A stretch of 64,000 bases of DNA from the NCBI RefSeq assembly GCF_009914755.1, contig NC_060926.1; one strand, given 5' to 3'. Both the position numbers and the translations under genes were made by a program. Origin of the DNA: the human T2T-CHM13v2.0 reference genome, Homo sapiens. Numbering within the stretch: position 1 is the stretch's first letter; each line of letters begins with the position of its first letter. Below are positions 801 through 64,000 of this stretch, piece by piece. Under the pieces are notes generated by a model. It searched no databases, had not been told where the DNA came from, and saw only the letters and a list, made by a program, of their open reading frames with translations.

Positions 801-1331
<531 letters not shown>

Positions 1332-1711
1332 TAAATGTAAGATGGTGATAAGCCTGGTGCCATGAGAGGTGACTGTCAGGTGGTCCCCCTAGGACTCCCC
1401 TGCCAGAGTTAGCCTGAGCTCCAGTGACGGCCCAGAAATTTAGCTCCCATTACCTCATGAATTCCCCACCCTGTGTGCTGCAGAGTGGATGATGGCAAGC
1501 AACACTCACAGCATAGTTTATATTCGTTTAATTTTTCTTTATTTTCAAACTAGAGAATATGTACTTACTGTAACAAGCAAAACAATACTTAAAAAGGTGA
1601 ATAAAAGCAAATATAATTATTTCTTCCTATCCCACTTCATTACCACTATCTCAAGAACACCAAGGGCATGCATGCATATGCCTATATCCATGTATAATAT
1701 ATAAAGAATAA

Positions 1712-2015
1712 GCCAGGCACGGTGGCTCATGCCTGCAATCCCAGCACTTTGGGAGGCCAAGGCGGGCGGATCACCTGAAGTCAGGAGTTTGAGACCATCC
1801 TGGCCAACATGGTGAAACCCTGTCTCTACTAAAAATATAAAAATTAGCCGGGCGTGGTGGTGCACGTGCCTGTAATCCCAGCTACTCCGGAGGCTGAGAA
1901 GGAAAATCGCTTGAATCTGGGAGGCAGAGGTTGCAGTGAGTTGAGATCATGCCCTTGCACTCCAGCCTGGGTGACAGAGCGAGACTCCACCTCAAAAAAA
2001 ATTAAAAAGTAAAAT
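1712..2015 (+). mobile_element. AluS-type SINE
   Basis: gccaggcacggtggctc...gagactccacctc followed by an A-rich tail. Confidence 0.95.
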
Positions 2016-2819
2016 AAAATATATCTCTAATATATAGCATATATATTATATATACTACACATACCTTATATATCATTTTACATAAGTGGGATCATATACA
2101 TGCTGGGGGAATTTTAGTGCCGTATTTTGTCTTTATGTAATTATCTATTTTGCATGCCTTTTGCAGGTGTGGTTCCTCCAGGGACTCATTGGAAAGCGCG
2201 GACGTCCTGTGGCCATGGGATCACACCTGTCTTCAGTGGCACTGTTTCCCTGTTTGTTCTTGAACACGCCTGCTGCCTTGGTTACACTGGCCTACTGGTG
2301 AGTCTTCAGAGAAGTGGCACTGCTGTTTTTTTCTTTTCTCCGTTGGTGGTTTTGGGACATCTGAGATGTCGCCTACTCCCACTCAGTCTCTTTTATTTTC
2401 TGCAGTTCCTCTGGCCTGTCTTGTTCCCTGCTCTTTCTAATTGGCTCTCATTTCCAGCTGCCAGCCCCTGCATTGCTTCTGACCTTGTCTATTTCCAGAG
2501 ACCTTCCCAAAGTCACAAATCTCTTGACAAAAGGCTCCTTTCCCTTTCTGTATAGAAGCCTCTCCCTATCCCTCCTCAAACAAATCTTACCCAAGCCTTC
2601 ACCCAGTACTCAGCTCATTTGTCAGTAGAGACCATTCTTCCTGACCCTTCCCCTACCAGGTCACACATTTGATCAATACATTTGTGTATTGCTTTGTAGA
2701 TTTCAAACACATTCAAATAGATTACTTCAAAAAATTCTTACAACAGCCCTATGAAACAGAAAGGGGTAAGTATATTGCCTCCCCAAATATATAGGTCTTA
2801 AAGGACATTAACTGACAAT

Positions 2820-5820: not shown

Positions 5821-7626
5821 TTCTGTTGCTACTTTCTGCCTCCTGAGAAAAACATAGCCATCTCAGTGTAATGGGTTGCATTCCAAATATCCCTTTCTTT
5901 ATAAATCCAAAATGAAAATTAAATAGGTACCACAAAGAATTTTCTAACCGTAAGCTGAACACAAGCAAGCTTTAATAGTATGCGCTGATAGGAGTAGCTA
6001 AGAGGGAACAACCTAAAATGAAAATAGATAGCTAGCCCTCATTTCTAAATAATGCCTTTAAAAATGTTTTCTTATGAAATGCATTGTAAAATGGCATAAG
6101 GAACTTTCCAAACTCGCATGACCAAAATATATGATCTTAAAATCACAATGCTCTACAACACAACAAAATTTTAGCCAACCTAGATTCGCAGGAATTTCAA
6201 ATTCTGAATGGATGTAAAAAAAATCTCCACTAATTCAAATAATCAAACCAAGTACATTTTTATCTAAAAATACAATCTGAGGCAACTCCATTTTATAACC
6301 AAGAAACACTCATAGCATTTAGTAAGCTACAATGTTGCAACTTCTATTCAAGTTGAAGTTGACAGTTAGGAGCTAGATAAATAGAAACTAAACTTCTGAA
6401 TAGTTATCTATCTTGTAGTTACGGGCTCAATTACTTCAATCTCCAGCGGGGACAGCTATTAGTTCGATAAAATAAATATTTTTAATTTCCTCTATGCATT
6501 TCCTCAAACCATGCCAATGCACTTATCTATGGCTCACTTAAAGAGTTTGGTTAAGCGGCCTCCACTTACTTAAAAGACAATGTTTGATTTTCCTATGAAA
6601 TGGAGAAATGGACGTGAGTGCTCGTTGTTTTAATGCACTGAGCCCTTAATCACTTCCAGTTCTGATTCATCAGAAAAGTTGTCCTCTTGAGGGTTTGGGG
6701 GGCTTTTTTGGTCACTAAATATTGTCTTCCATTTTGAGATATTTATTCCTTGCCAGAAAATGATACTGTATTTTCCCCTAATGATGAAGGATGAAAGATG
6801 GAGCAAATTCCATTTGGTGATTATTGAACCACAGAGAAGTAAACTGACTCAGAAAACAAATCCCCAAAAGAAAAATAAATGTATTATGTGAGGTAGGAGC
6901 ATGGGATTCTTGGCAAATATTCAATTGGAGCCAGGATTGGTAATTTAATAGCATCCTTGTCTCATTAATATTTGAAGGGGGAAGGGTAAAGCTCTCGGGC
7001 TTTTAGCCATGAGCCAGAATCTCCCTATTCTTCACCTCTCCACCGCTACCCCAGCCTGCATGGATGTTAAAGATGCAAATGCCTGGGATGCCTTGCTAAG
7101 AGTTGTTAAAAATGCACAGGCCATAAGCAGGGGTCCAAGACGCCATCGCTCCTCACATAAGCCAAAGGAAATAACACAACCTTAACTTCTGCAGCTCAAT
7201 GGGCAACGCGAATAACCTACAAGCCTACTCTGAACACTGTTCCCAGAGGCCTGGAGCATCAGACCCAAATCAGAGCAGGCAGAGGAGTTCATGAAGTGAC
7301 ATCTCCCAAAGACGATTCTGCCAAATCATGCCAATTTGGTAAATGCGTCACTCTACTTTCAACTGGTCCTTCTAGCTTCCCCTTGCTGATTGGCAGAGTT
7401 TGGCAGGGAAAAAAAAAAAAAAGCCCTTCCTTTGGAAATCCTGGCCACATCTGTGCACTAGAAAGGGACACCCCCAAGTGGTATAGATAGGAAAGGGCTT
7501 AGAAGTCAGTGCTGTAGTAACACACAGCCCCTTTCTAGGACTGCATGTTATGAAGTGTAGCATTTTTGAGCTTTGGTTCTCTTTCAAGTTAAAGGAGGAG
7601 AGAAGGATATTGAAAAACGAAAAAGA

Positions 7627-7925
7627 TGCTGGGCGCGGTGGCTCACGCCTGTAATCCCTGCACTTTGGGAGGCTGAGGTGGGCGGAACATGAGGTCAGGA
7701 GTTCTAGAGCAGCCTGTCCAATACGGTGAAACCCTGTCTCTACTAAAAATACAAAAAAAAAAAAATTAGCCGGGTGTGGTAGCACAAGCCTGTAGTCCCA
7801 GCTACTCGGGAGGCTGAGGCAGAAGAATCACTTGAAACCTGGGAGGTGGAGGTTGCAGTGAGATGAGATCATGCCACTGCACTCCAGCCTGGGCAACAGA
7901 GCAAGACTCCGTCTCAAAAAATAAA
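7627..7925 (+). mobile_element. AluS-type SINE
   Basis: gctgggcgcggtggctcacgcctgtaatccc...gactccgtctc followed by an A tail. Confidence 0.95.
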
Positions 7926-8139
7926 ACAAAGATGAAAAAGACAAAGAAGGAGAAAGACAAGTTTAGTCCAAACCCAGTCCCCAAGACAGCTCCGAATTGC
8001 CAATTTTCTGCCATAAACCTTTTTAATTCTTGGATTATGAAATGTGTAGAAAAAACAAATTTAATTGCTAACAATCTTACCTAATTTTATGGTCTCCATG
8101 GGTGTCTGAAAAGAAACATTATATGGGTCACACAACTGT

Positions 8140-12478: not shown

Positions 12479-12790
12479 GGACCGGGAGCGGTGGCTCACA
12501 CCTGTAATCCTAGCACTTTGGGAGGCCGAGGAGGGCGGATTACAAGGTCAGGAGTTCAAGATCAGCCTGACCAACACGGTGAAACCCTGTCTCTACTAAA
12601 AATAATTAATTAATTTTAAAAAATTAGCTGGGCATGGGGCATGTGCCTTTAATCCCAGCTACTCTGCAGGCTAAGGCAAGAGAATTGCTTGAACCTGGGA
12701 AGTGGAGGTTTCAGTGAGCCAAGATAATGCCACTGCACTCCAGCCTGGGCGACAGAGCAAGACTCTGACTCGAAAAAAATAAAGAAAGAA
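12479..12790 (+). mobile_element. AluS-type SINE
   Basis: Alu dimer with near-TSD gaaata(g/t)ggagaagg. Confidence 0.93.
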
Positions 12791-14363
12791 AGAAATATGG
12801 AGAAGGAAAGTAGATGTGACGTTGAGAAGAAATTCCAGCAGTATCACTGGAAGGAAGGGAATCAAAGAGTGAAGCAAAGAAGAAAAAGCATGGAAATGGG
12901 AGATTAGTTTTAAATGCGAAGAGGGAAAAAGGACAAAAGGGAAGAAAATCCAAGGAGCAAAAAGCAATAAACCAAAACTGAGAGACTGGAAGGAGGCAAC
13001 ATTATTTCTGCAAAAAGTAAATAAATACTATCTCCTTAGAAAACAAGTTGAAATTGGCATCAGAGGCACCAGAAGAACCATCAAGGACCAGCTCATCTGA
13101 CTCAGGTTACGAATGCTGATAAATTTATTAGCTACTTAAAAAAGTGTAACCAAAATAAAAGAAAGGAAAGCCTTTCATTATTCAAAACACATGTAGGTTT
13201 CTAAAACATATTTTTGTTGTAAGCCTCCAGATTTTTACTGAAGTCTTTTTCTCCATTTATTTTCCTACTTTATATTCCAAAAAAAGTTACATATTCATCT
13301 CAAATAATTACAAAAGATGTTCTGTGACATCTTTGCAAATGGCCTCACAAGAAATTTTTCATTTCGGGGGCTACGTCCATATTCCTTTACAGCAATCTTT
13401 GATTTTGATCTATCTACTCGAACGATCCAATTCATTTTTTAAAATTTAGAACTACTTAATTCGTTTACTGAGTTAACTGGTTCACCAACTTAACTGGAAT
13501 TTATAGCTGAATATATCATTCATTTCAGTCCAAATGGGCCAGCCATTTAAGCATACAGACACATAATGTGCTTTCTTCAATATTAATTAATTTGCACTGC
13601 TTCCTCACAGCGGATTATTGGCAAAATGGCTTTTCTTAAGATCTGGATCTACAATATGAACATTCATTATTGCACTCACCAACCCATAAATTCCCAAAGT
13701 TAGAGGGATAATTTTGTAGCTCATGTATTTTCTTATGGAGAATTATACCTTTAAGAGAACATTTCCTGATCTCCTTCAGTAATTATTTCCATCAGCAAAA
13801 TCTTCCTATTGATAATATGATGAAAACAGGAAATTTGAGACAGTGTATAGTACCCTTAGAACAACTAGTGAAAAAAAAGGAATTCTTCCTACAATTTAAC
13901 ATAACATTTTCCAGCCCCAAACAAAAATGCAGTTTACTGAAACTGTATTGGCTCATTTTTGTAATGTTGTGGGTCATATTTTCTAAATAGCATCTGTAGA
14001 AGAATCATTTAGAGTTCTAATCTCAGAGATTTTGCTAGAGAGGAGTAAGGTGACAGAACATTTAATTTTTTTTTTCATTCAGACTGGATGTTTCATATTT
14101 ACTTCATATGTAGCAAAACTGCCCTGGAATTCACATAAATAATGAATTAATGAAATAACTCTCAAAGTTCATGAGACATAAGAAAGTATTCTCTGGGCAT
14201 ATCCCAGAGTAGAAATCTGAGTTTATGGCTCTCAATTCTCACCTATGCAAATACATAACCTCTCCAAAGTAAAGTTCCATCCCCAGTTCTGAATCATAAT
14301 ATTCAACCAAAAAAAAAATCACAATACACAAGTGGTATTTCCAAATTAAAATAATTTAGTTGT

Positions 14364-14705
<342 letters not shown>

Positions 14706-15546
14706 TTAGCAAAGGGACTTGGAAAATTTGAATAAGGTGCGTGGCAAAAGAGTGTGTCTGAGATCTTCTTTTGTTCGTTTATTTCTATATTACCTTCCAT
14801 TTCATGGGATGTCTTATGATCTCCAGCTGTGGCACAGCAACACTGAGTCACGTGAAAGTAACAATAGTTTTGACTTATAAAGCAGTTTTTTCTAAGGAGC
14901 TTTTGATAAACTTATTTCATTTCTTCTCCCAAAGTCTTTATGCTGCTGAAGTCAAATGGTATTACCCTCGTTATATATGCATGTGGATAAAGAGATATAT
15001 TGTTGACTGACAGGGTCATGGTTAAACCTAAGCCAGCTAACATTATTGATAGCATGCCATTCCACTTTATTATGGATGCTTTATCAATGATATGCTCAAA
15101 AAGCTTCCCAACCAAAGAACATTCCTAGGTAGAAAGCTGGAGTGTAGTTTACCCAACAACAGATGAGCTGCACACGTGTTGACTGCCAAACAGGAGAAAC
15201 TCTGCTGGGGTGGCTGGAGAGAAACAAAGAGGAACAGGACCTAGAGCTCTCACGGGACAGGTCATTTCACATCTCTCCTAATGGAGACAAAATGGCATCA
15301 AAAGTCAGCATTCTTTTATTGCCTCTCCTACCAAAGATGAAAACACAGTATCATTAGCCAAATTTACTCTGAACTTCCACCTCCTCAGGTTGAGTCAATG
15401 TATCTTTCCATCAAGGTCAATAATGTAAGAGGCAGATTGGTAACTGAATTGCTTAAGGAAAAATTCAGGGCAGGATGTATTTCTGGTTTTGACAAGGCTT
15501 TGGATCATTAGAAATACAGTCCTTTAGGGAGAAGAAGGTACATACT

Positions 15547-16176
<630 letters not shown>

Positions 16177-18659
16177 CATATTAGCTCTTTATTCTGTTTC
16201 CTTCCTCACTGAAATTTGGTTTGTGATATTCCAATCCTTAGTCATATTTTTTATCATTGCAATTGGTCATGAAGTTTTGTCGTGTTAGAAATATGAATTG
16301 GTAATAAATAAATAGATTAGTAATTTAAAAACTCAGCATCCCCAGGCTCCCAAGGTTCATCAGTATAAATTATAAAATATGTGATTTAAGTTGGACTTCA
16401 TAGAAAGTTCACGACTGCAAACATCTTAGCCCTATGGGACCCTTTCAGACCTTTCTTTCTGAAAAATAGTCTCTCTGGGGGTTTGAACTCAAAACGGTAC
16501 CACCCCTTGTTATACTGAAAGAGTTTTGATAAATCTGCAATATAATTAGATATCTGGGGAAAGGGAAAAGGACAGAAAGGTGGGGTGGGACCCTGCCTCT
16601 GAAGTTAGAATCGAGTTTGTAGCATGCATGTGAAGTTAGTCCACACGCACAAGTACCACACAGACATGAAGGATTGTAAGGGTGAGAATCTTTTCAATTA
16701 ATATCTCTCAAGTTAAGAATTTTTGCACAATAGATCATATCAGCATTGGAGGTTGGGTCTATATGGCACCCTAATAACTAAGGTGAAAAACTTAGAAAGC
16801 CTTCCAGATGTTGGAGCGACATCATGTCAAACATATGACAATGTAGAAGTATCTCATAGCCTGAGGCCTGCAGGGCCCACCAGAACAATATTCTACTTGT
16901 TAAAGGTGGATGCCTCCTGGCTGGCCACATTACCAAAGCCTGCTGAGGTGCTGACACTCCCAGTAGGATAACTGGAGATTCCCTGGCCACCTTTGCTATT
17001 CTTCATTTGCCCCTCTGAGGAACTCTCTCTAACCTCTGGGGTTGAAATATCAAGCTGAACCTTTTGGAATGTTCGTAAGCCTGGCATCTGTGCTCAGCAG
17101 TAGAGTCTCTGAATTCAAAACAGGACTGTTTCCTGGCTCAGAACTCCAGCTCCAAATTCCTCAGGCTCAGAACTGATGGGAAAACAGATCTTCAGCATTC
17201 TTCTGATTTAGAAATCATTCAGATAAGAAATTGACAGATAAGAAATTGACAAGGAGGTACAAAATCCTTAATTTACATAGCTGTCTCTTTTTTTCTTCTC
17301 CATGGTAAAGAACAGAGCATGCTTAACCTTGATTTTCTCACTTCTCTCAGTTTAAAGCACAGCCCATAACATTAATTAAAGTGTGTGTGAGATGGAGGGT
17401 AGAAGTTATATTTCATATGCCGTACCACATGGCATTCTAGAAGAGCTGTATGATTTTTAGGTGTGCTTTTTTTCCCAACTTGATACCTACGTAGTCCTAC
17501 AACTATTCGGCATAACATCTCCCATACTCCACCGAGGACCTCCACAGTAACAATTTTAAAATAAATGCAGTCCCAAAGAACAACTGCTAAGGGCACTGGT
17601 GGGTTAAGGATTTAGGTAGATGAAGGTAAATTTCTGACTCAGAGCTCCAGAATACTAAAGCTGGGAATCACACTGAGATGGTCAGTTTTTAATACTGGTA
17701 ATCCACTGAAGTTTAGAGATGAGGCTTACAGAAGGTAGGTGGCTTATGTACTTCAGGGTGAAACAACACATCAGGAGTAACCCCAGGTATTTCTTATAAC
17801 TCCAAGTTTTAGGGCCATAAACCACTTTGAGATACTGATGTAAGTTAGATATTTTCCAGGAAAAAAAAGTCATATACACATATACATACAATGCTAGCAT
17901 ATAAACTCAGGGGGCTCATAGAACCCCTTAAACACCTTTGGATGTTTAAGGAGTCTCTGATCTCCAGGTTAAGAACTCTTGCACCTGAATAAGCAGCTTT
18001 TCTAAATATGAAGTGCTACTTTTAATCCCTTTGAAAACTTACCACCTTTAGCATATAAACTTAGATTTAATGAAGTAATCTATAAAATTCAAAGGAAAAG
18101 CAATTCCCACAACTCAAATAGATGATTTAATCCCTAATCAATATTTCCATATTTTTAACGTGTCAAGGAAAAAAATGTGCGAGAGAAATTTAAACCTACG
18201 TGTATTTTATCACCAATTTCACATATGGACATGGAATATCTTTTCTCCTAATATGGAGATGGCTCAGCAGTATTTAAATGATTCCTTATTCCAAGTCATA
18301 TAAATATGCACCAGATGTATCTTTTGTAAATGTTATGTTTTTCAACTTCTCAGCATTTGCAAGTAGTTGAAAGCTATGTCAAGCATGCTTTAATGGGGCA
18401 TAAAAGTGTATTGTATTCAAAGAGATGGCACAGCTCTGTAATAGGTGAAAATACAAATGTTGTCAATGTATACATTTTCATTTTATTGATTTACACTGCA
18501 TAATGGAATGCCCTGTATTCTTCTTTACATGCAAGTTCTATAACAATTGAATATAACTAGATATAAAAAATCATGCTTACATTAATAGATTCTCTAGATG
18601 ACAGAAAATTCAAAACACAGAATTTTATGACCAGAAGGCAACTTAAAGATCAACCAAAT

Positions 18660-49600: not shown

Positions 49601-52199
49601 AACCCCACAACTGACTCCATGTAACCCGATTTCTTTCTAGTGAGTACCAAGAAACAGTGGAACTGAAACCATAAGTGGAAATATTTGCTGTATTATAACA
49701 TGCTCAGAGGCATTAGAGTTGGTTTTTTTTCCAGTAAAACATACATAATAAACAGGGAGCCATTTATTTACAAATACAAATGTCCTAGACAAGCCACATT
49801 CCATGTATGTAATTCATTAATGGAATTTGTTCATTTTTCTTCCTTTGGAAACAGAATTTTTGCTTTAAAAAATGGCTTGGTCTTGGGGAGGAGGTGGGTG
49901 GGAGAGTAGTTTACCTGATCTTTGAAAAGGGAGAAGTGTCCAGCCAATTCCTGTTTCGAAAGAATGCTAAACAATATAAAATAACCTTTTAAAATAGATG
50001 GAGAGGCTTTTGTTTTCTTTTTTACTCTTCAGAAAAGAAGTTTGTTAGTTGTAGTTGCTGTCACAGAATTGCCCAGTGGAAATGGACTGTTAATATCACC
50101 CTAGTTGACACGTGCGTGTGTGTCTGTGTGCGCGCACATGCGTGTGAACAAAATTGCATTTTAAATGTCTTAAGCTGGATGGGAATCTACCAAAATTGTA
50201 TCTGTAAAATATACTCAATTGCCACAGTTTTAGAAATGTCTGTGGAAATGTCCCCACCGGCCTGCCTCCTTCCTGAGAGTTTATATCTAGGTAGAGTGTT
50301 AGGTGATGACTTCCTAGTCACCGGTATGCCAGGATTAGTTACCTGGCGAAACTGAGTCTGGTCTTTAATTCAAGAAGTTTTCTCTAAGTGAATCTCCTTT
50401 CCCTATAAGTTGATAGAGGGGTGTTGTTTGAGGGAGAGTTGTCCAGAGGAAGGTGGAATCAAGTGTGAATCATCTGTGTGACCCAGTGAGCAGTGAATAA
50501 ATATGAAAAGTGCAGAATACACCTGAGGTATGTCTGGAGCTTTGTAAGGTCCTAACACTAGACATGATTACATAGGACAAAAAGAATGATCACTGCTGCC
50601 CATGTTTCTTTATTGTAGCTACAAAATAATGGAATGGACATTGAGATGGAAGCAAAAACTTTTTAAATTTTTTTTCTTTTAAAGAAAAGGGACAAGAGGT
50701 GTTCTGATGAGCTTCCTGGGAGACCACACATTAGCTCTGTCCTGCAGGACTGCCTCTCCGCATAAGGCAAGCCCATTAAGTCGGCTGGAACATTGCACAC
50801 TGAAATAGAATAGATGTTCATTTCAAAGAATTTTCCTTGAGCCAGCAATAAAATAAAAGGTGACAAAACCCACCACGCTCATTGTACCCAGGTTTAGACA
50901 GGGAAACTTCCAGGTGTGAGGGGGGCTAGCCAGATTTGTTCCTTTCTGCCCCTATCAAGGTCTCAGAAGGAGGGTGAGTCTGTGTTTCACTTACATTTCC
51001 AAGGTTGAAAACTCTCCTGCAGAGTTAAAAATAAATTAAATAGGTCTAATCAGAAAGCACAGTATCACCCAGAAACTAACCAAATGAAATGTCTTAGTAG
51101 CTTGGTCTTGAGAATCTTTAGGTGACAATGGTGAAAAAGCCATCACAGAACAAAACAACATCTACAAACTATTTTAAATTACCATTTCATGGGGAGAAAT
51201 CTTTCAAATTTCAAAATCGCTCAGGCAAGTCTACTGATTCTACTTTGTACGCCTTAAAGACTTATGCCAAGCACAGCTTTAAAAACGTTTCACTCCTGAA
51301 AGAAGGTCTTTAACTCTTCCAATAACTATTTAATAGTTGTCCTGAATGTTTTTAACAAGAGACGGGTATTAAGTGAGTGGCCTTGAGTCCCAAGCAGTCT
51401 GGGGGAATAGAAGTGGTGGACACTCAAAGGCACGGAGCAGCCTGCACCTGAAACGGGCTTTCTGCTTTTCGGTGAGGAGGGGCGGCCGAGGTCAGCAGTA
51501 TTTACATATGTACCTGATCCCACGGGCTTTCCTCTATTTATCAAAGAGGAGGGCCTGCAGGTGAAGGGGTGGAAGTGAGGGGAGAGAAAGACCAAAAGAG
51601 AGATCAGTTACCTTTCCCCTTTGTTCCTGGGCCTTGAACTGGGGCTTCAAGGAGGGGAATAAAAGCCCCCAGGGAATGAAGCTTCCACCTCCATTTGCAT
51701 CATCCTGACACCCCCGCCAGAAAACCAAGTGCTGGCTGAGTTGGGGCAAAATGGTAACTTGAGGAATCCCAGTGTGAGTGTGTTACATAACATACAGAAT
51801 CCTCTGTGGGGAGAAGTGCACTCACTTGATTTTCTCCAAATGACTGTGTGCAGGCGGAAAGCCCTAGAAAGGAGGATTGAAGACCAGTTAAATAGGAAGA
51901 CTGTGGGGAAATGGGGAAACGTGTAGCCATATATGACAGGGCACATGTAAGCTTGTGTGCAGGTAAAGTCATACCTGCACCATCTGTGTGCCAGAGCATC
52001 CTTCAGAGATCCTGCCTAGAGCTGCACGTTGGCTAAGCAGGAGTCCATACTTTACAATGGTGGTATGGTGGGGGCAGTGGTACCCAAGACTACTGGGACC
52101 TGGCTGCCCTGTGGGGTAGTAGGAGCCAGGTTAGTTCACAACTGTGTCATCCTCAACCAGCTCTTTTTTGTCAGAACCCTCAAATCCTTAGCCTGGGTG

Positions 52200-53500
52200 G
52201 GCAGATTACCCCCTCCTCTGTGCGCCCTGCTGTGCCCACCGCAGTCGCCCTGCGGTGGCAGGAGAGCTACTCATTCAGCAGTAGCAGCATTGCGCCGCTG
52301 CAGCATCCCGAGGTCACATTCAGAAAGCCCGTTCTTCCAGGACAGCATCGCCCCAATACTGCAGGCGGGGCGAACCGTGTTTATCTGCCCCAGGCACGGA
52401 GGGGAGATTGTAACCAAAGGAAAAGAATCTCGCAGAAGGGGATCTGGAAGAGGGCAGTTGATCCTGGGCAGATCCCCTGCGCCGGGCCCTCTCCGCTGGG
52501 GGCGAGCCCGGAGGGAACCGAGGGGCCCGGGAGGGGGAGCTGCTGAAGGCGCGCAGGCTGACAAAGCTATAACAAAGGCTCCCTACAAAACTAGTACTAA
52601 GGATCTTTAAAGGATCACACACCTTGCAGGCGTGTCCCCAGCTCCCGGGACGCAGAGCCCGCTGACTGTTCCCCCGGGCTCCGCAGACGTGCCCGGGTTG
52701 TCAGAGGTGTGGGGCTGGAAGTCCAGCGTCTCGGCCTCTGCCCCTGCGCTCCCACAGGCCTGAGCGGGTAGGGGTAGGTGCCCGCGCCTGGGCCCGCGGG
52801 GCTTTGGTCATGGCTGTTCCCCGGGAGGCTCAGTTAGGCAGCAGCCTTGCTGGGCAACAGGCCCCGCCCTTGGTTAATCCGGGAAGGTCGCGGGCTGCAA
52901 TCTGGCCTGACGAGGCAGGCCCTGAAGTCTCCCCGCTGGGCGATCAGAAGAGCGTTCGAGAAGCCGGGAGCTGGTGGGGTTGGCAGGGCGTCTGAGTCAC
53001 CCGAGCTGCAGAACGGACGCCCCCACGACGCGCTGTGGGCACTCACAGCGGCTAGTTGGGCATTTCCCAGCAGCCAAGGCTGCGCACTCCGCCCCCGCTG
53101 AGGTCCCCTTTGGTTCCCGAGGACCCAGCTCCTCCCGCCCCTCTACTCGGCGCCCCCTGCCACCATAGAACTCTGGGGTAACCCTGGGCCCCGACCTCCA
53201 GCTGGTGGGTAGGAATTGTTGGGAAAGGATTGGCGCCCCAGCACCGGGAGACTGGAAGAGTTGAAATCAACGCAGGAGAACAATTAGGAAAAAGTAAGAA
53301 AAAAATCACCCGGATGACCTCCAACTTCACCCCCACACCCCCATGGGGTTCTGAAGGCTCCGGCGCAGCTCCTACAGGCGTCTAGGAGTTGGTGGGAGAG
53401 GCGCTGCTCTGGCACCTCGCGGTCTCAGGAGTGGGGCTCAGCGCAGAGCGGGCGGCAGTGAGGAGCTCAGGGCCCGAGTTCAGGGCTAGGAGCAGGTGCA
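52200..53500. promoter_or_regulatory. CpG island
   Basis: CpG-rich block. Confidence 0.7.
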
Positions 53501-54224
53501 AGAACAGTGCAGCAGTGCAAGCATCAGGCAGCAGTGTTTCTCCTCCGCCGACAAAGTGGGTGGTGAGAACACAACTCTGGGAAAGGGGTAGGCGTGGATG
53601 TAAAATATAGTCAGTGACTGTTCCCCTACTTCTTGGTGTCCCCTTTCTTGAACTCAACTCAGGAGAAGCTCAGAAGCATCGCTGCAGACCTCCAACTTCC
53701 AGCTGTGGTCACCCACCGGCCAAGCCTCCCAGAGCCCAGGTCTGCCAAAGTTGGTCCAAGCCCTCAGGCCAGACCTCCAGACACCTTCTCTATCCACCCC
53801 GCACCCCTGCTGGACTGGGGTGGGCTAGGGCTTCCACTTCCCAAATGGCTGCTGCCTTGGGGCCTGCTCTGAAATTCCAGCTGGCGGGTCTGGTTTGGGC
53901 AGAGGAGGGGGAGGCAATGAGTGACACAAGCCCCCACCCCTGGTTACAAACAGTGCAAATGAGATGCATTTAGGCTGATCACGCTACTGTATTTTATGCA
54001 ACTGAATGTGTCTATGTCTTGTCAACTCTTCTAGTCAGGAAGAATAGCAGAAAAAAATCTTCAAAGATTTTCTATGTGTGTGTGGTTTCCAACTATAATT
54101 CCATATAGGACAGTGGGGTGAGGGTGGGGCAGGGAGACTTGCTGACGTGAACAACATTACATAAACCCTCCAAAAATGCAATCTTAAGCCACAAAGAAAG
54201 AACTGAAAACAGGTGGGGATGGTG

Positions 54225-55384
54225 GTGGTATTACCTTAGACACCTAGGGGTTCAAAAACCTCAGTGGAATGAAATGGGCCTGGGGTATTCTCCCTTTGGT
54301 GCCTCCCTAGGGACAAGCCCTTTTGGCCTGGGTTATGGCTGCTAGCGAGAGACCTTGATGAAATTAGGTGGATTCCGGCTGGGAAAAGTTTAAAGCTGTA
54401 ATATTTCTTTTAAAGAAACAAACTCATTTATATTTATTTTGGTACAGGGGACAGGTTCTGAACAATGTGTAGGCCCACCTAGGGGAATGTCAAGGGTGCC
54501 CTAGGAGGGGATAGGTTTTGTGACACAAAGGAGGCCCTGAAGGGGCGATGGAGTGTCTGTTCTTCTCTTTATGTCCATTTTCAAACAAGTTGTGAGTAGA
54601 GGAAGTCTGCCTCCAAATCTCACCAGACTCTCCCACCAGGTGTCCTGGGAACTGAGTGATGTGGGTCTCCTGTAAGGTAAGTGGAGGGGGTGCCAGGTTC
54701 TAGGAGACAAATAGCTTCTGGTATTGTGCCCCAGTCCTACTTGTGCAGTTCCTCATGCACTTTGGGAGAGCTCTGGAACTCCCTGTAGGACAGCTGGACA
54801 GGATCACAGAGTCAATAAACCCAGAGCCAGCACCACCACCAGCCCTTCAGGCTTCTTTGCCTCTGACACCAGAAAGGGGAACAACTGATTGTCTTTTCCC
54901 TGTTCAGGGACTCTGCCTCTCCACCGCCCCTCGCTCCCCCCCACCTCCCAGCCAGGCTTGGTGGTGGGCAGATCCCAAGCTGAACTTGTTTGCTGGGAGT
55001 CCTTGCTGGGAGTTATAAGATGAGCCTTGTGGCAGCCTCTTGCCCCCTCCTTCAAGGGGTGTCCAGGGTCAGCAGGGAATTTGCTTGAGGGGAGCCTCTG
55101 GGTCCTCTGAGTTCTCAGGGTGCCTCTTGGTGCCCTGGAACAGAAAAGAAATTGTTGTGGACACCTCAGGCTCTCCTCTTTAGAACTGCCTCTTGGGTCG
55201 ACTGTCCACTTACAGAAAGTGACTAGCTTCACCTTCAGGACTCAGGGCCATCATACATAAGCTGCCCACAGTCTAGGCCAGGCCAAAGAGGCTTGTCCCT
55301 AGGGAGGCACCAAAGGGAGAATACCCCAGGCCCATTTCATTCCACTGAGGTTTTTGATCCCCTAGGTGTCTAAGGTAATACCAC
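54225..55384. repeat. 107-bp inverted repeat pair (54225-54331 and 55278-55384), 946-bp spacer
   Basis: Manual reverse-complement alignment: 104/107 identical, no gaps. Confidence 0.97.
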
Positions 55385-57099
55385 GCCATCCTGTTACATG
55401 TGCAGGATTCCTTCCCTGCTGTATTTCTTGGCACTGCCTGAGGTGTGAGCTGCCCCACTGCAGGGCAATTAACTCTGACAAATAGAAATGGGGAGGGGGG
55501 CTCATGGCTTCACATCAAGAGAAGAGGCCACCCAGTGCTCAAAAAGTATCAAAACTTTTCGCTGCTTAGCAGAGGAGTGTGCTTGTCACTAGCAGCTCAG
55601 GTTTCTGCCATGCAGCCTGGGCATTTCCATACCAGCCCGGTAAACACATCAGAACCAGATGCTGCTGCTGCTGCTGTAGGCTTCTACCTAGGAGGAAGGT
55701 GAAGGGGAAATATCCCAAGCCAGGGACTTGAAGTTCATTGTTCCAAACACTCCTTGTGTCCTGAAGAGCTAAACTATGGGACAATGAGCAGAGATGACCT
55801 ACATCAAGATGAACTGCTGGCTCCTCCAAGTGCCCAGCTGCCTAGCCTGCCTGCTTCATGGTGACTAAAGAATCCCTACTAACTGCCCCCTCCTTTCTTC
55901 TCATGGACTGCAGCAGAAATTTATTCCCTTCCTCCCTCCAGGCCTCTTCCTCCTATCCCAGAATGAACAGGGACTTCCATTTGGGATAAGAAGGGGTGTC
56001 AATCAAGAGGCAAGGAGGGTTGGCAAATCATCTTCAGTAATAAATAAACCCAGCTACACAGTAGCCTTTACACCAATATACCGTTCTCAGTAACCTTTTC
56101 TTTTCAGTCACTTAGCTTATGACAAGCTAAAGGCATTTCAACCCATGAGCAAAAAGAAAATTCAAAACATAGGCCCAATTCCTTCTTTCTCTTTGCTGCC
56201 TGGGTTCCCCATTCTTCATTTCCTCACCTTCCAAACATCCCAATAGCCATTACCCCATCTGAAGAATTAAAACACTTGTTCCTTAAAATCGTCTAGGGTC
56301 TGCCGGATTATCAGAGTAATTGAAGACAGAAAGCACCCCTGCTCCATCCCAATTCTGCATCCAAACCAAGTACCATATATTGTGTAACCACCATCATCAG
56401 TTACACTTTGCGTAACTTGGCAGAGCCAGAAAGGAAGACTCCATTATTTACCAGCAGTAGCAATAAACTTTCTGAGAAAAATAAGTTCAACATTGACCAT
56501 GAATACCTACTGGAGAACTCTTTGAAAACATTACCTGTTTTTTTTTAACCTCCTATTTTGGGGAAGGAGTGCGGTAAAAATATTAGGTAGCAGAATTTTA
56601 AAACAGCTTGATTACCTCATTTGGGTTTGGAGTCCTCAACTCCAGTCATTAGTAATAAAGTCATTAATAGTCATAATTGGTATTTAATTGCTTGATCTGA
56701 TTGGTGCTTTATTCCTGATTCCATTTAGTTTCATGGAGAGGTACAGGTGGTGCAGTCAGTAAACGGAAGCCAGCCATTTGCAGGCAACTTTTCAAGCATA
56801 AGGGAAAGTACTTTTGTTATATTTGCAGACATGTGTCTCACACATTTCCCCCCTGCTTTTGGTAAACTATCTAAGAATAAACATTACAGATCTGGGCTTT
56901 AATTTCTCCAGATGGGATCATAAAGTACCTAGGAGGTGTGTGTGTATATATATGTGATATAGAATTGAGGTCACATGGCTGCTGTTCACACTGCAAGTCA
57001 AAAAGAAACTCAATGCTCAATGCGAACGCAGAAAGAACTCAACAACTGAACCGCCAGTGGAATCCAGTATCTGGGCAAGTTCACTTTATTCCTTCGCAG

Positions 57100-59220
57100 G
57101 AAGAGGGTCAGCGACGGCCAGCGAAAGTTTCCCCCGCTCTTTGAAGAGGGAGGTGACAAGACCTGCCAGACCTTCCCACGCGCGGGCCGCCTGGGTTCTG
57201 GGGCTTTCGTGACGTCTTCCCTCATCGCGCTCCCCACCCCCGAACACACACACACAGACACACACACACACACACTCTTCCTTGCTCGGGAAACTTGGCT
57301 TCAACCTGGCTCCCCCTTTCAAAACCCCCTGGAGAACTTCCCCTGCAGGGATGCCCTGCGCCCGCCGGCTGCGCCCTCCCTCTCCTCAGCCCTGCTCCTC
57401 CTGTCCGCTCCCCGGCGTTCTGGACTCACCCGGCACGGTCCTTCCATTCCACATACAGACAGGAAACCGGCCTCTTCGGGACAACATTTGAAACCACATT
57501 TTATCAACATCATCAAAGACCAGAGCACACACTTCGGGCTCTGAGCTCTGGAGCCCGCTTCTTGCAGAAAACCGGGTATGGGGGAAGGGCTGCAGGGGCG
57601 AGAAATCCTGCTTCCAACTGCGATTTCAGCTTTCTTATGGAAATGAACGCGACGGCCCGTTCGCCCCGAGCCTCCCTCCCGTTCCCAGCCCCTCTTCAGC
57701 TTACCCTTTCCTCCCGCTAACCCCCGCCCTCCCGGTCCCCGAGTTCCCGCGGCGGCCAGGCTGGTGGGGACGCACTCGCTCTGCGCCCGGGTCTCGGCGC
57801 GCGCGGAAACCCAGGCCGCGGGCTCCCCTCCGCCCCGCCGGCCCGCGTGCAGCATTAAATATTCATAGGGATGCTACTTTCTTAAAGGAGAACCTACCGC
57901 GCGGGAAAGTTCACAGCCAAGGAGAGGCACAAAAGAAGGTCTCCGCGCTGGTTCTCAAGGGCGAGGAGACGCATCCCTTCTTGACAGTGCGCCTCCAGAC
58001 TGGCATTAAGGAGAGGACTAGGGAATGGGATCACCTATCGTCAAGTCACTTATTTTAGAGGGGTTTGGAGAAGAGGTGAACTTGGTGGTGGAGAGAAAGC
58101 GCGCTCCCTAATCACCTGTTAAACAGTTATTTTAAAATTAGCTGTCGCATCTGACGCCCTAGGGTCCCCAAGGGCCTTTTCATAAGGGAGTCTGTTTAAC
58201 TTCACTGGCTTTGGGAGCGAGAAAGTTTGCCCTTTGTTTCTGGAAACACGCCCACGCAGTACGCTTAGGTAACCTTACACTGAACAATTTCCTTGGAGCG
58301 GCTAAAACCGCAACAACCAAACTTGCACCTGCGCCATTCTCTTAAAAACAGGGCAGCGGCTGTGAGCGCTGGGCCGGTAAGTAAGGGCAGAGAAAGGGGC
58401 TGTCGTGTGCGTCCCAGCTCTCCGACCCGCACGTCCGGGACCCCTTTCCGCCCGCGCACCGCGGTCACTTGCAGCCGGCGCTGGCTGCTTGAGCCCGCGG
58501 CCGGGTCGCCCGGCTTCTCTCCGGGAGAGTGGCCAGGGCCTAGGCGCTCGCTCAAGAGGGAGAGCGAAGGGAAAAGAAGAAAGTTCTCCGCCGGCCGCGC
58601 GCAGCTCCTCCCGTGAGCGCGCCCCAGCCCTGGGCCGGCCCGACCCGACCCGCGACGGGGCCACGCGTAGTGCCAGGCAACTCCTGTGCCCTGTGGCCAG
58701 CCCCGCGCGCGCACTCGCACTCACACACACTCATACTCACACCCCACGGTTCTTTTTGTTCCGGGCCAGGAGCACTTTCACAAGTGGTTAGAAAGTCTTG
58801 GGCGCCATCTAACGGGAGCAGCAAAAAGTTGACGCTGGGTGGAGGTTAGGCCCGACAGGAGCCCAGGATGGGCGGAGGAGATCCTCTCTCCCACTCTCTG
58901 CACTCCTGGGTCTTGACCCCCTGCTTCCCAATTACCACCACCAAAAACATACACACACACTCGAGAACTGAGGGGCCTCCGGAAACCTCCTTGCCCAGGG
59001 CCTGAGGGCAGCCCTGACTGCCCGCTCGGGGACCCTCCCCTGAGCCCCAGCCTTGCATGCCTTCGGGCGTTCCCTAAGGCGCACAGAAGAGGAAGGATCG
59101 TTTTGCGCCTGTCTTAATACGGACCCGGTGTCATGCAAGCTCTCGCTGGTTTTCCTTTGGCCTGTGATGGAAAGTCCGAAGAGGCCCGAGGCAGGCGCAC
59201 CTGCTTCTGGAAAGGAACAG
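57100..59220. promoter_or_regulatory. CpG island (likely LINC01159 promoter)
   Basis: CpG-rich block containing minus-strand splice donors. Confidence 0.75.
57430..57570 (-). ncRNA. LINC01159: Probable first exon of downstream lncRNA LINC01159
   Basis: Minus-strand donor CGG|GTGAGT (actcac at 57424-57429) at the edge of a CpG island. The identity comes from recalled locus order only. Confidence 0.35.
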
Positions 59221-60816: not shown

Positions 60817-61286
<470 letters not shown>

Positions 61287-62830
61287 TGATTATGTTTAAG
61301 CCCCTGGTTCTAATCAGAAGCTGGAAGTTCAAAGGGCTATATTATTAGTGAGTGCTCTTCCTTTCTTTATTTCTAGAAAGTAACCAGAGAGTCACCCTCT
61401 CTTAAGTGTAGAAGACAGAAAAAAAATGTTCCTTGTCTTCTTCCTGGATTCCTTGCTGTATTCAAATTGAAATGGAAAGAAATACTAGTGCCTTAGACAT
61501 TGGCCATGTGGGTGATTGGTGGAAATCTTTGAAGTCCTTTTTCCTAGAAAAGGGCTGAGTAATAGCCACTGTGCAAGCAGGAAGGCTGTCATTCCATGCC
61601 TGGAATTCCCTGGTTTTGGAGCTCTCTCAGGGACAAAGTGCCCCTCTATCTCCTCACATGGCTGTATTTGCCATTACCCCACGCCAGGCTTACTTAGGAT
61701 TTATGTGTAGTGTATCTACAAAATGTTCTATGATCCTTTTTTCCCCTTTTTTATATTAGTCATTCCTTTTTATAGCCTGGGGAGACAGGTTTGTGTTTTT
61801 ATTTCCCACATTTTAAGTGAAAGTATCCAGAGTGGGCACAAAATAATAAATGTAAACGACTGTGGAGACGGGGTCGTGGCTGCGGCTCCCAGCTTGAGCT
61901 TTGACTTGGCGCATCGAACCACACTGTTTCTTTCATCTGACAGGATGGTTGGCACAGGCCAGAGATGAGAGAAACCAGAGCAGCAAGCCTTGGCAGAGAC
62001 CTCGACCTCCCTTCTGCCACCAGGCCAGCTTTGCCACTTGCTGAACCGCTAGAGCTCTGTGCTGCTTTCGCTCTTCAGGGTTCAGGGGGCTTGAAGGAAG
62101 GGGATTGGGAACACCCAGCACCTCAGTCTGGCCCTCCCCTGTAATTGCTCCATCTGCCCCCAAGGGAGAAGGGTGAACTGCACATCAGGAGTACCATAAC
62201 TTAAGACAAAAGGAAAAATCATGACTGTGGTATACACACACACACACACACAGAGTCATTGCCTCTTCCCTTGTTAAAGCTACTTCCACAAGAAAGAGAA
62301 CCACACAAAAGGGTTATGTTTGGGGGCGCTGGGACCCGGAGACCCTCTCAGCTTTCTGAAAGGGCTTTGTAGTGCTTGGATCCAAGCCATTTGTTTCTAG
62401 AGAGAATCACGGTGGGTAGGAGCTTGCTTTTTCCATTTGCAATGGCTTATTAAGTATAAGCATCTCTCTTTCTCTCTTCTCTCTGTTTACTGAGCGATTA
62501 GCTCTCCCTCCAACTGACCCTGCCAGGGGAGATAGCCAAAGTGTATCCTTAACACACAGCTACCCTGCAAAATGCCCTTTCCATCAACCCAGAGACCACA
62601 GGCAGGACTCTGCAGTTCATTTTGGTGTCCTGTTTTTATATCAGTGGAGGATCTCCACTGATGGTGGAGTGTGCGCTAATGCCACCCATATTTACACAGC
62701 TCCATTCTAGTCACAGTGCAGAGAGAGTGGGACCTGGCTGAGACAGAGCCAAGAGAGTGATGTGTGCAGTGTGTGTGGCCTGGCTGGGAGGCCACAGTCT
62801 CTGGGCTCAATTGCCATCACTGATTCTTTT

Positions 62831-63138
62831 ATTTTCTTTTTTTCTTTTTTTTTTTTTTTTTGAGACGGAGTCTCACTCTGTCGCCAGGCTGGAGTGCAGT
62901 GGCACAATCTTGTCTCACTGCAACCTCCGACTCCCGATTCCAGGGATTCTCCTGCCTCAGCCTCCTGAGTAGCTGGGATTACAGGCACACACCACCACGC
63001 CCAGCTAATTTTTGTATTTTTAGTAGAGACGGGGTTTCACCATGTTGGCCAGGATGATCTCAATCTCCTGACCTCATGATCCGTCCTCCTCGGCCTCCCA
63101 AAGTGTTGGGATTACAGGCGTGAGCCACCACGCCCAGC
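62831..63138 (-). mobile_element. AluS (Sc-like) SINE
   Basis: Reverse Alu; TSD cactgattctttt on both sides. Confidence 0.95.
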
Positions 63139-64000
63139 CACTGATTCTTTTCTAAGCTGTACAATGACCCTTCTTCCCACAGAATACTGTCCTTCCTGTC
63201 CTCATGGGAAGAAGGACAGGTTCCTTCACCCTCCTGGATGCTGGCAGTTAAGTAATCTGGGAACTTGTAAGCAGGACAGACTAACCAGAAACTGGCTGAT
63301 TAGTAGCTGGTTGCCTGGCTGAATTGGCTGGTTTCTAGTAGGTCAGCTTGGTGGAAGGACAGATCAGCTGTGCTAGCAGACCGAGCCTTAATCAGCCAGA
63401 TTCTAAAGGTCAGAGTGGAAACAAAAATCATGCAATTTACCCAAATTTTAGAGACTGAATTCAATTGTAGGATTTGGTCTGGAAATAAGAATGAATTATT
63501 TTCAATGGAGTGGATCCTTTTTTCCTCCCTGCCAGTTTCTCTACTATGCTATAGAGAAAGCCTAAGATATATCATTGATATTGTTATAGAAATATTGTCT
63601 ACCTGCACGTACTACAGTATAGGCTGTAATGAAATAATTAAATCGAACTACTTTCAACCTTCTGCATATTCTCAATGGAAGCTTGGTGCTTTTATTCCAC
63701 ATTATGCTTTTGTGAAAAGGCTGCACTCTTACTATTCTAGTTAGAATTACTGTGTGACTGTTATATTTATTGTATGAATTTAGTGTTATTTAACACTTGG
63801 TAGACTACAAGGCTGGGGCAAATCCTGCATACAGAAGTTGGCATCTTGCCTGAGGGTTGGGATTATTTAATCTGCCAGTCACCCCATCCTTACCACCTCC
63901 TGGTGAAGAATAAACTTCTCCGGTGGAATTACTGAGGGGGGTGTTTCTGGGTGGGTGGCAAAGGTAGATTGGAGCTCTGTGCTCTGTTTGGTCCTGAGAG

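What the first reader, a model, noticed from the sequence alone, without database searches (positions are those of the whole stretch)
54225..55384. Near-perfect non-Alu 107-bp inverted repeat about 12 kb downstream of POU3F3: a candidate long-range RNA duplex
Seen: 54225-54331 (gtggtattaccttagacacctagggg...ggacaagcccttttggcctgg) is the reverse complement of 55278-55384 at 104/107 positions, without gaps, across a 946-bp spacer of unique-looking sequence. It does not resemble Alu or L1 and has no obvious TSD. A transcript from either strand would fold into a ~107-bp stem with one G-U wobble, one A-C mismatch and one U-U (or A-A) mismatch. Established: an A opposite C is a preferred ADAR context, and duplexes this long are ADAR/Staufen/Dicer/PKR substrates. 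Inference: such high arm identity implies a recent template-switch duplication, ongoing gene conversion between arms, or selection for pairing. It could be a structural element of LINC01159 or of POU3F3 read-through RNA, or a recurrent inversion breakpoint.
Basis: partly seen in the sequence, partly recalled or inferred. Interest (0 to 1): 0.85.

Follow-up and report, generated by a model that had tools for sequence, protein, structure and literature searches.

The report
Single-copy inverted repeat in LINC01159 intron
A real, near-perfect 107-115 bp inverted repeat that occurs nowhere else in the human genome sits inside an intron of the non-coding gene LINC01159 and brackets one of its alternative end exons; it is most likely a by-product of a single local DNA copying error, with no demonstrated function.

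Summary
Bases 54225-54331 are the reverse complement of 55278-55384 at 104 of 107 positions. A gapped extension runs to 54217-54331 / 55278-55391. Identity falls to random (23-25%) just outside all four ends.

It is not a dispersed repeat. The arm, a 32-mer from it (up to 3 mismatches) and the 946-bp spacer each occur only here in the 3.1-Gb assembly. There is no target-site duplication, no Rfam match and no supported ORF.

Both arms lie in the 3,853-nt intron of LINC01159 (- strand). They bracket its alternative polyadenylated terminal exon (54408-55134). The right arm is 143 nt upstream of that exon's 3' splice site and the left arm 76 nt downstream of its cleavage site. The arms pair at about -230 kcal/mol on either strand.

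Best reading: one local inverted duplication (template switch or staggered-break micro-inversion), probably older than the human-chimpanzee split. It yields an intronic, nuclear dsRNA by accident. No annotated mature RNA contains either arm, so PKR, Staufen and Dicer roles are unlikely.

A selected loop-out switch for the alternative exon is not excluded. Age, conservation, editing and Dfam status could not be tested here. This is an ordinary member of a known class (non-repetitive long inverted repeats), of modest interest.

The parts
54217..54331 (.). Left arm of the inverted repeat (ungapped core 54225-54331; the outer 8 nt carry one mismatch and one 1-nt gap in a GGT-rich run)
   Evidence: single-copy apart from its partner
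55278..55391 (.). Right arm of the inverted repeat (ungapped core 55278-55384)
   Evidence: the only other place in the 3.1-Gb assembly that matches the left arm
54332..55277 (.). 946-bp spacer; unique sequence, GC 0.52, CpG observed/expected 0.10
   Evidence: matches only itself in the genome at E<=10; composition; one ORF of at least 60 aa, with no Pfam family above cut-off
54408..55134 (-). Alternative terminal exon of LINC01159 (hub gene table), lying wholly inside the spacer
   Evidence: hub annotation; 3' splice site and poly(A) signal confirmed in the sequence
55135..55164 (-). Polypyrimidine tract and AG acceptor of the alternative exon (...TTTCTTTTCTGTTCCAG|G), 143 nt downstream of the right arm on the RNA
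54433..54438 (-). AATAAA poly(A) signal 25 nt upstream of the annotated exon end at 54408; the left arm begins 76 nt after that end
53577..57429 (-). Host intron of the main LINC01159 isoform (3,853 nt; GTGAGT donor, CCCAG|A acceptor). The right arm is 2,038 nt from the donor and the left arm 640 nt from the acceptor
   Evidence: hub annotation; splice sites read

Best explanation
This is a locus-specific inverted duplication. About 115 bp of unique sequence was copied once, in reverse-complement orientation, to a site about 0.95 kb away. The likely cause is a replication or repair error. One candidate is a template switch of the kind described by the four-point model. The other is a micro-inversion with staggered breaks, which leaves the staggered piece at both ends.

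The arm divergence suggests an event older than the human-chimpanzee split but within primates. That date is an inference, not a result.

The structure sits in the 3.85-kb intron of LINC01159. The nascent - strand RNA therefore carries two complementary 107-115-nt segments that can zip into a near-perfect duplex and close a 946-nt loop. The intron of any long + strand POU3F3 transcript would do the same. On the - strand that loop contains the alternative terminal exon of LINC01159 together with its 3' splice site and poly(A) site.

The expected consequence is a nuclear, intronic dsRNA. It would be a good ADAR substrate wherever the locus is transcribed, and it is discarded with the intron. As a side effect it may modestly disfavour the looped-out alternative exon. 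I judge the element most likely neutral rather than selected.

Shown: the repeat, its uniqueness in the genome, its sharp borders, its folding energy and its position relative to the splice and poly(A) signals.

Inferred: the mechanism of origin, the age, the editing and any effect on isoform choice.
For: - The repeat is real: 104 of 107, extended to about 110 of 115.
- It has sharp borders: 23 of 100 identity on each side just outside the core. This fits one discrete copying event better than a decayed ancient structure.
- It is unique in the genome. The arm has 2 places in 3.1 Gb, and both are the arms. A central 32-mer with up to 3 mismatches has 1 forward and 1 reverse place, with 0 and 0 for the reversed control. 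The spacer matches only itself. In the 5-kb context only a simple repeat near 57216-57287 matches elsewhere.
- No TSD above chance, no Rfam family at E<=1, and no supported protein domain in the only ORF of at least 60 aa.
- The spacer has CpG observed/expected 0.10, typical of bulk methylated DNA.
- Folding: the minimum-free-energy fold of the 1,201-nt - strand RNA contains the whole stem at -562.5 kcal/mol. The duplex alone is -232.2 (+ strand) and -230.2 (- strand) kcal/mol. Each arm alone folds no better than shuffled sequence, with z from -0.95 to +0.77.
- Literature: template switching is documented to create inverted repeats, with or without an inverted spacer, in the human lineage (passages of PMC5453318). 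Primate-specific long inverted repeats in introns of nervous-system genes are reported (passage of PMC5414712 citing Wang and Leung 2009). A genome-wide scan predicts 5,134,754 dsRNAs, of which 31,017 are more than 96% paired and about 497,000 are non-repetitive (sections 9-10 and Table 1 of PMC11838218).
Against: - No outgroup genome was available. The ancestral state, the age and which arm is the copy are all untested.
- The template-switch events catalogued in PMC5453318 are short clusters (the passages seen mention a 14-bp filter). A 115-bp copy placed 946 bp away is much larger than those.
- 97% identity could instead reflect purifying selection or gene conversion.
- The arms bracket an annotated exon closely. 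By my arithmetic from the coordinates, about 220 of about 2,680 possible placements of a 946-nt loop in this intron would enclose the 727-nt exon, roughly 8%. That is a mild hint against pure accident.
- The genome search skips very common words and would miss family members below roughly 85% identity. Dfam and RepeatMasker were not available. The hub's note that no masked stretch of 100 or more lies here is only indirect evidence.
Confidence: 0.55

Rival explanations
1. A selected long-range RNA structure, acting as a loop-out switch. Pairing of the arms in the LINC01159 pre-RNA would sequester or loop out the alternative terminal exon with its 3' splice site and poly(A) site. That would favour splicing to the distal exon (50681-53576) and suppress intronic polyadenylation. 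ADAR editing or helicases could tune the stem.
For: - The arms bracket the exon closely: 143 nt upstream of a good 3' splice site and 76 nt downstream of the cleavage site. My arithmetic puts chance placement at about 8%.
- The stem dominates the predicted fold.
- Kalmykova et al. report that exons looped out by complementary regions have lower inclusion. They give an alternative 3'-end exon (FGFR1OP2) looped out by such a pair, and they propose structure-mediated suppression of intronic polyadenylation (passages of PMC8052449).
- The extended Pou3f3 region is described as nearly pervasively transcribed in neuronal lineages (passage of PMC4383022).
Against: - No conservation, co-variation, expression, editing or cross-linking data could be examined.
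- Known functional long-range pairings are far shorter and less perfect. The conserved dsRNAs in PMC11838218 are the least stable class, averaging -42 kcal/mol, whereas this stem looks like raw duplication.
- The cleavage site is transcribed before the left arm, so polyadenylation could pre-empt pairing.
- LINC01159 itself has almost no literature: 8 papers hold the name, 6 were listed, and none is about it.
Confidence: 0.14
2. High arm identity is maintained at the DNA level. Recurrent gene conversion or NAHR between the arms, with flipping of the 946-bp spacer, would keep an older inverted repeat homogeneous.
For: - Two of the three core differences are adjacent (54320-54321). The remaining core consists of perfect runs of 26 and 68 bp. 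This is compatible with patchy conversion.
- The repeat passes the lenient Lirex 'recombinogenic' rule: ratio 0.11 at or above mismatch rate 0.028 (rule read).
Against: - The arm-to-spacer ratio of 0.11 is far below the figure of more than 16 quoted for strong recombinogenic ability. The spacer is far above the 20 bp quoted for labile inverted Alus.
- From recall, not from any call: 107 bp is below the homology lengths of known human NAHR inversions.
- The sharp borders do not require conversion to explain them.
Confidence: 0.08
3. Two copies of a conserved cis-regulatory DNA element (a duplicated enhancer or transcription-factor platform of the POU3F3 domain). Each would be under purifying selection, so the pairing potential would be incidental.
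For: - The locus is a developmental-gene neighbourhood. RefSeq annotates enhancers and silencers nearby (52735-53029 and 57460-58185 in the hub table).
- 3C contacts and a regulatory differentially methylated region are reported in the linc-Brn1b / Pou3f3 3' region of mouse (passage of PMC4383022).
Against: - No RefSeq functional element overlaps either arm (hub table).
- CpG observed/expected is 0-0.12 in the arms and 0.10 in the spacer.
- No paralogous copy exists elsewhere in the genome.
- From recall: 97% identity between ancient duplicates would need ultraconservation of both.
Confidence: 0.08
4. Terminal inverted repeats of a DNA transposon or foldback element, either a catalogued low-copy family or a lone surviving copy.
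For: An element of about 1.17 kb with arms of about 115 bp has the general shape of a non-autonomous element with long terminal inverted repeats.
Against: - Only two places in the genome match the arm, and both are this locus. The spacer is unique.
- No TSD above chance.
- No transposase-like ORF.
- The hub lists no masked stretch of 100 or more here.
- From recall: human DNA transposons are old, so their two ends should differ far more than 3%.
Confidence: 0.04
5. Assembly artefact in one arm.
For: None was found. Only one human assembly could be examined.
Against: - The arms differ at 3 core positions and by an indel at the outer end. They are separated by 946 bp of unique sequence.
- The annotated exon in that spacer has intact signals and the same orientation as the rest of the gene.
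- This is not the pattern of a fold-back read artefact.
Confidence: 0.02

Closest known systems
Non-repetitive long inverted repeats and predicted intramolecular dsRNAs of the human genome (Lirex and Wang & Leung LIRs; dsRNAscan of Andrews & Bass, PMC11838218)
   Same: Two nearby reverse-complementary unique segments in an intron of a gene in a neurodevelopmental locus, with a loop under 2 kb. The stem length and loop size fall within the ranges tabulated there. A 122-bp repeat with mismatch rate 0.047 and an 811-bp spacer appears in the Lirex 200-kb demonstration table.
   Different: At 97% pairing it is much better paired than the median non-repetitive dsRNA, which is 75-88% paired and 75-144 bp long (Table 1). 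It is shorter than the class of over 300 bp discussed as MDA5 ligands.
Template-switch mutations (four-point model, Loytynoja & Goldman 2017, PMC5453318)
   Same: A reverse-complement copy of nearby sequence with sharp borders. This creates an inverted repeat that can form an RNA hairpin, and the spacer may or may not be inverted.
   Different: The described events are short local clusters. Here the copy is about 115 bp and lies 946 bp from its source. No ancestral sequence was available to fit the model.
Inverted Alu pairs (IRAlus), the main human ADAR substrates
   Same: An intronic inverted repeat that forms a long duplex in pre-RNA.
   Different: The arms are not SINEs and are single-copy. 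They are 97% paired, against 73-93% for the Alu-type pairs in this same window.
Pairs of conserved complementary regions that loop out exons (Kalmykova et al. 2021, PMC8052449)
   Same: Complementary intronic segments enclose an exon. That paper includes an example with an alternative 3'-end exon.
   Different: Those pairs are defined by evolutionary conservation and are short. Conservation could not be tested here, and this stem is an order of magnitude longer.

Membership tests
DNA transposon or MITE with terminal inverted repeats | Belongs to a multi-copy family in the genome | tested here: not met
   The arm has 2 of 2 places at this locus only. A 32-mer with up to 3 mismatches has 2 places, both here. 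The spacer matches only itself. The search would miss copies below roughly 85% identity.
DNA transposon or MITE with terminal inverted repeats | Target-site duplication flanking the inverted termini | tested here: not met
   The longest flanking direct repeat over 806 candidate end pairs is 4 nt, seen at 2 placements against about 3.1 expected. Neither is at the repeat ends.
DNA transposon or MITE with terminal inverted repeats | Match to a catalogued consensus (Dfam or Repbase) | not testable with these tools
   No repeat library was available. The hub lists no masked stretch of 100 or more at 54225-55384.
Inverted Alu or L1 pair | Arms are copies of a SINE or LINE family | tested here: not met
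   The arms are single-copy. The Alu-type pairs of the window are 73-93% complementary and lie in masked stretches.
Template-switch mutation (four-point model) | A segment is the reverse complement of nearby sequence, with discrete switch points | tested here: met
   104 of 107 in the core, with identity dropping to 23 of 100 beyond each border.
Template-switch mutation (four-point model) | An ancestral or outgroup sequence lacks the copy and is explained by a single switch event | not testable with these tools
   No other primate or mammalian genome is held. Exact-pattern scans of genome contigs and viral contigs gave 0 matches.
Conserved long-range RNA structure (PCCR, exon loop-out) | Complementary segments lie within one pre-RNA and enclose an exon | tested here: met
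   Both arms lie in the 53577-57429 intron and enclose exon 54408-55134 (hub table). The stem is present in the minimum-free-energy fold.
Conserved long-range RNA structure (PCCR, exon loop-out) | Evolutionary conservation and compensatory substitutions | not testable with these tools
   No orthologous sequences were available.
ADAR hyper-editing substrate | A long, nearly perfect intramolecular duplex in a transcribed region | tested here: met
   Duplex energy is -230 to -232 kcal/mol and the longest perfect run is 68 bp. Transcription is taken from the annotation only.
ADAR hyper-editing substrate | Observed A-to-I (A-to-G) clusters in RNA | not testable with these tools
Known structured RNA family (miRNA, snoRNA and others) | Match to an Rfam covariance model | tested here: not met
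   0 matches at E<=1 over 53000-56600 on both strands. Each arm alone folds no better than shuffled sequence.

The most novel reading that the evidence does not exclude
The repeat is a primate-born RNA switch. Its 107-115-bp stem would loop out the intronic polyadenylated exon of LINC01159, a lncRNA immediately downstream of POU3F3 in the region where mouse linc-Brn1b lies. The switch would set the balance between the short and long isoforms, with ADAR editing of the stem tuning it in brain. This would be a case of one template-switch mutation creating a regulatory RNA structure in a single step next to a cortical-development gene.
Probability: 0.1. Interest if true: 0.55.

Novelty: new member of a known kind. 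Interest (0 to 1): 0.25.

Why it matters
If neutral, it is one more example of how a single replication error can create a long, near-perfect dsRNA-forming structure in unique sequence. It would also be a likely non-Alu ADAR target that is useful as a clean editing reporter.

If the loop-out reading were true, a lineage-specific structural mutation would have rewired isoform choice of a lncRNA in the POU3F3 regulatory neighbourhood. That is directly testable with minigenes and antisense oligonucleotides.

As the evidence stands, it does not bear on any long-standing open question.

Tried and rejected
- **Rfam.** The scan of 53000-56600 gave nothing at E<=1.
- **Other copies in the assembly.** I searched with the arm, the spacer at E<=10, the 5-kb context and a 32-mer with up to 3 mismatches. 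Only the two arms matched, plus an unrelated simple repeat.
- **Orthologues as stray sequence in other collections.** Exact-pattern scans of genome contigs and viral contigs gave 0 and 0 matches. This says nothing about conservation.
- **Wider, more degenerate duplication.** A permissive blastn of 54000-55600 against the whole window found only weak chance-level hits: 49 nt at 73% and 40 nt at 77.5%.
- **TSD search.** Negative.
- **Coding or transposase remnant.** The one ORF (87 aa) hit only DUF5543, at 14.5 bits against a cut-off of 25.
- **Local hairpin or miRNA-like structure within a single arm.** z-scores ranged from -0.95 to +0.77.
- **circRNA idea.** I rejected inverted repeats driving back-splicing of the enclosed exon. 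The exon ends at a poly(A) site with AATAAA and has no GT donor.
- **Literature.**
  - 'LINC01159' is held by 8 papers, 6 listed, none on its structure. One passage mentions only a promoter variant.
  - 'POU3F3' plus 'inverted repeat' is held by 6 papers, 5 listed. The one I opened (PMC7680136) mentions POU3F3 only as a binding factor.
  - I found nothing in print on this repeat with those two searches.

Full report
**1.

The sequence at 54100-55500 and the repeat finder show arms 54225-54331 and 55278-55384, each 107 nt and 97% complementary, with 946 nt between them. A script counts 104 of 107 matches. The differences are at 54251 (T against rc A) and at the adjacent pair 54320-54321 (CT against rc TC). 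This leaves perfect runs of 26, 68 and 10 bp.

Gapped alignment adds 8 outer columns with one mismatch and one 1-nt gap, in a GGT-rich run. The arms become 54217-54331 and 55278-55391, at 95.65% identity over 115 columns.

In register, identity just beyond the core is 23 of 100 on the outer side and 23 of 100 on the inner side, so the borders are sharp. The chance of at least 104 of 107 matches at one placement is 2e-58.

The window holds 276 inverted pairs of at least 40 nt. Among the 25 longest shown, this is the only one above 93% complementarity. The other 24 (73-93%) lie in or overlap the repeat-masked stretches the hub lists.

**2. It is not a dispersed repeat.**

- In the 3.1-Gb assembly that holds the window, the left arm matches two places only: itself at 100% and the right arm at 97%.
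- A central 32-mer with up to 3 mismatches occurs once forward and once reverse, both at this locus. The reversed control gave 0 and 0.
- The 946-bp spacer matches only itself at E<=10.
- A 5-kb query (52500-57500) picks up nothing elsewhere except a simple repeat near 57216-57287.
- No flanking direct repeat exceeds chance. The longest is 4 nt, at 2 placements of 806 tried against about 3.1 expected, and neither sits at the repeat ends.
- Rfam gives 0 matches at E<=1.
- The only ORF of at least 60 aa in the unit (87 aa, + strand) hits one Pfam family, below its cut-off at 14.5 against 25 bits.
- Each arm on its own folds no better than shuffled sequence, with z from -0.95 to +0.77.

There are limits to this conclusion. 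The genome search skips very common words and would miss relatives below roughly 85% identity. No Dfam or Repbase library was available. The hub's statement that no masked stretch of 100 or more lies here is the only direct word on RepeatMasker status.

**3. Anatomy relative to genes (hub gene table plus sequence).**

The main LINC01159 isoform (- strand) has exons 57430-57779 and 50681-53576. The intron between them (53577-57429, 3,853 nt) has a GTGAGT donor and a CCCAG|A acceptor, and it contains both arms.

The exon of the other transcript, 54408-55134, lies wholly in the spacer. Its upstream end has a good polypyrimidine tract and AG (TTTCTTTTCTGTTCCAG|G). Its downstream end has no GT donor but follows an AATAAA (54438-54433) by 25 nt. 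It is therefore a polyadenylated alternative terminal exon.

On the RNA, the right arm ends 143 nt before that 3' splice site. The left arm starts 76 nt after the cleavage site. The stem would therefore close a loop that holds the whole alternative exon with both of its processing signals.

By my arithmetic from these coordinates, about 220 of about 2,680 possible placements of such a unit in this intron would enclose the exon, roughly 8%. That is suggestive but not compelling.

Neither arm is in any annotated exon. The region is also inside the span of predicted long POU3F3 models on the + strand (hub table).

**4. Pairing potential.**

The 1,201-nt - strand RNA (54205-55405) has a minimum-free-energy structure of -562.5 kcal/mol, in which the arms pair end to end. 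The arms alone give -232.2 kcal/mol on the + strand and -230.2 on the - strand. This was expected from the sequence identity and is not independent evidence of function.

**5. Origin and age (inference).**

Single-copy arms with sharp borders point to one local inverted copying event. Template switching during replication is documented to create inverted repeats in the human lineage, with or without inversion of the spacer (passages of PMC5453318). The events described there are short, however. A staggered-break micro-inversion would give the same end product.

The count is three differences in 107 bp, or four to five events in 115 columns. That is more than expected for a human-specific event. 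From recalled rates of about 0.5-1e-9 per site per year on two diverging copies, the figure is on the order of 10-30 million years, with a wide Poisson range. It assumes neutrality and no gene conversion. Errors made by the copying polymerase at the time of origin would make the event look older than it is.

CpG observed/expected of 0.10 in the spacer and 0-0.12 in the arms is typical of ordinary methylated DNA.

None of this could be checked against other species. No primate or mammalian genome is held, and exact-pattern scans of genome contigs and viral contigs returned 0 and 0 matches.

**6. What it most likely does.**

Wherever the LINC01159 intron is transcribed, a near-perfect duplex of about 107 bp should form in the nucleus. 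From general knowledge (recalled), duplexes of this length are promiscuously edited by ADARs, and A opposite C is favoured. Each strand offers one A.C mismatch.

Both arms leave with the intron or with the downstream cleavage product. The stem is also well below the roughly 300 bp discussed for MDA5 (section 10 of PMC11838218).

A side effect on isoform choice is plausible. Exons looped out by complementary regions show lower inclusion. An alternative 3'-end exon looped out in this way has been described, and structure-mediated suppression of intronic polyadenylation has been proposed (passages of PMC8052449). Against this, the cleavage site is transcribed before the left arm.

At the DNA level the arm-to-spacer ratio is 0.11. 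The figures quoted for strong instability are a ratio above 16 or a spacer under 20 bp (passages of PMC5414712). The repeat does pass that paper's lenient rule.

**7. How unusual is it?**

Andrews and Bass predict 5,134,754 intramolecular dsRNAs in the human genome. Of these, 31,017 are more than 96% paired. Their Table 1 lists 4,597 edited and 492,832 unedited non-repetitive ones, with median lengths of 144 and 75 bp and 87.5% and 75.2% paired. Their text separately says about 2 per Mb, which does not match the table.

The Lirex paper cites primate-specific long inverted repeats in long introns of nervous-system genes. Its 200-kb demonstration table contains a 122-bp repeat with mismatch rate 0.047 and an 811-bp spacer.

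This element is therefore at the well-paired end of a known class, not a new kind of thing. I found nothing in print on this particular repeat:
- 'LINC01159' is held by 8 papers, 6 listed.
- 'POU3F3' plus 'inverted repeat' is held by 6 papers, 5 listed.
- I read passages.

**8. Verdict.**

- The repeat is real, non-transposon and capable of forming an RNA duplex.
- It is intronic only.
- Function, selection, editing and inversion are all untested.

My probabilities are:

| Reading | Probability |
|---|---|
| Neutral local inverted duplication that yields an incidental nuclear dsRNA | 0.55 |
| Selected loop-out switch for the alternative terminal exon | 0.14 |
| DNA-level homogenisation or inversion toggling | 0.08 |
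| Duplicated regulatory DNA | 0.08 |
| Transposon termini | 0.04 |
| Assembly artefact | 0.02 |

The remainder is unassigned. Interest is 0.25, and I class it as a new member of a known kind.

Noticed in passing
window 54674-54682 (+ strand): A textbook 5' splice-site motif, AAG|GTAAGT, lies on the + strand in the middle of the spacer, inside the - strand exon. No + strand exon is annotated here. It could matter for the predicted long POU3F3 transcripts, or it may be chance.
   Followed up: no
window about 57216-57287: A simple-repeat stretch just upstream of the first exon of LINC01159. It matches dozens of places on many chromosomes at 85-97% identity over 30-60 nt.
   Followed up: no
window 54208-54230 and 55385-55400: The outer border of the left arm is a GGT/GGTG-rich run (GGTGGGGATGGTGGTGGT). 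By eye, allowing a 4-nt indel, a further 5-nt match (AACAG) appears on both sides. The original copy may therefore have been about 120 nt long, and slippage in this run may have blurred its outer end.
   Followed up: partly
window 54755-55018 (+ strand): An 87-aa proline-rich ORF in the spacer, antisense to the LINC01159 exon. Its only Pfam hit is DUF5543, below the cut-off. Probably chance.
   Followed up: partly
window 800-2060, 7586-7961, 12480-12802, 14335-16216, 60851-63151: All other long inverted pairs in the window (73-93% complementary, 87-187 nt) fall in or overlap the masked repeat stretches. They look like ordinary SINE pairs, and several lie within 300-1,300 nt of each other (for example 997-1145 with 1713-1861, and 15612-15711 with 16009-16108).
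   Followed up: no
PMC11838218, section 9 against Table 1: The paper's text gives about 2 non-repetitive dsRNAs per Mb. Its Table 1 lists about 497,000 non-repetitive predictions, roughly 160 per Mb. The base rate for elements like this one is therefore uncertain from the text alone.
   Followed up: no
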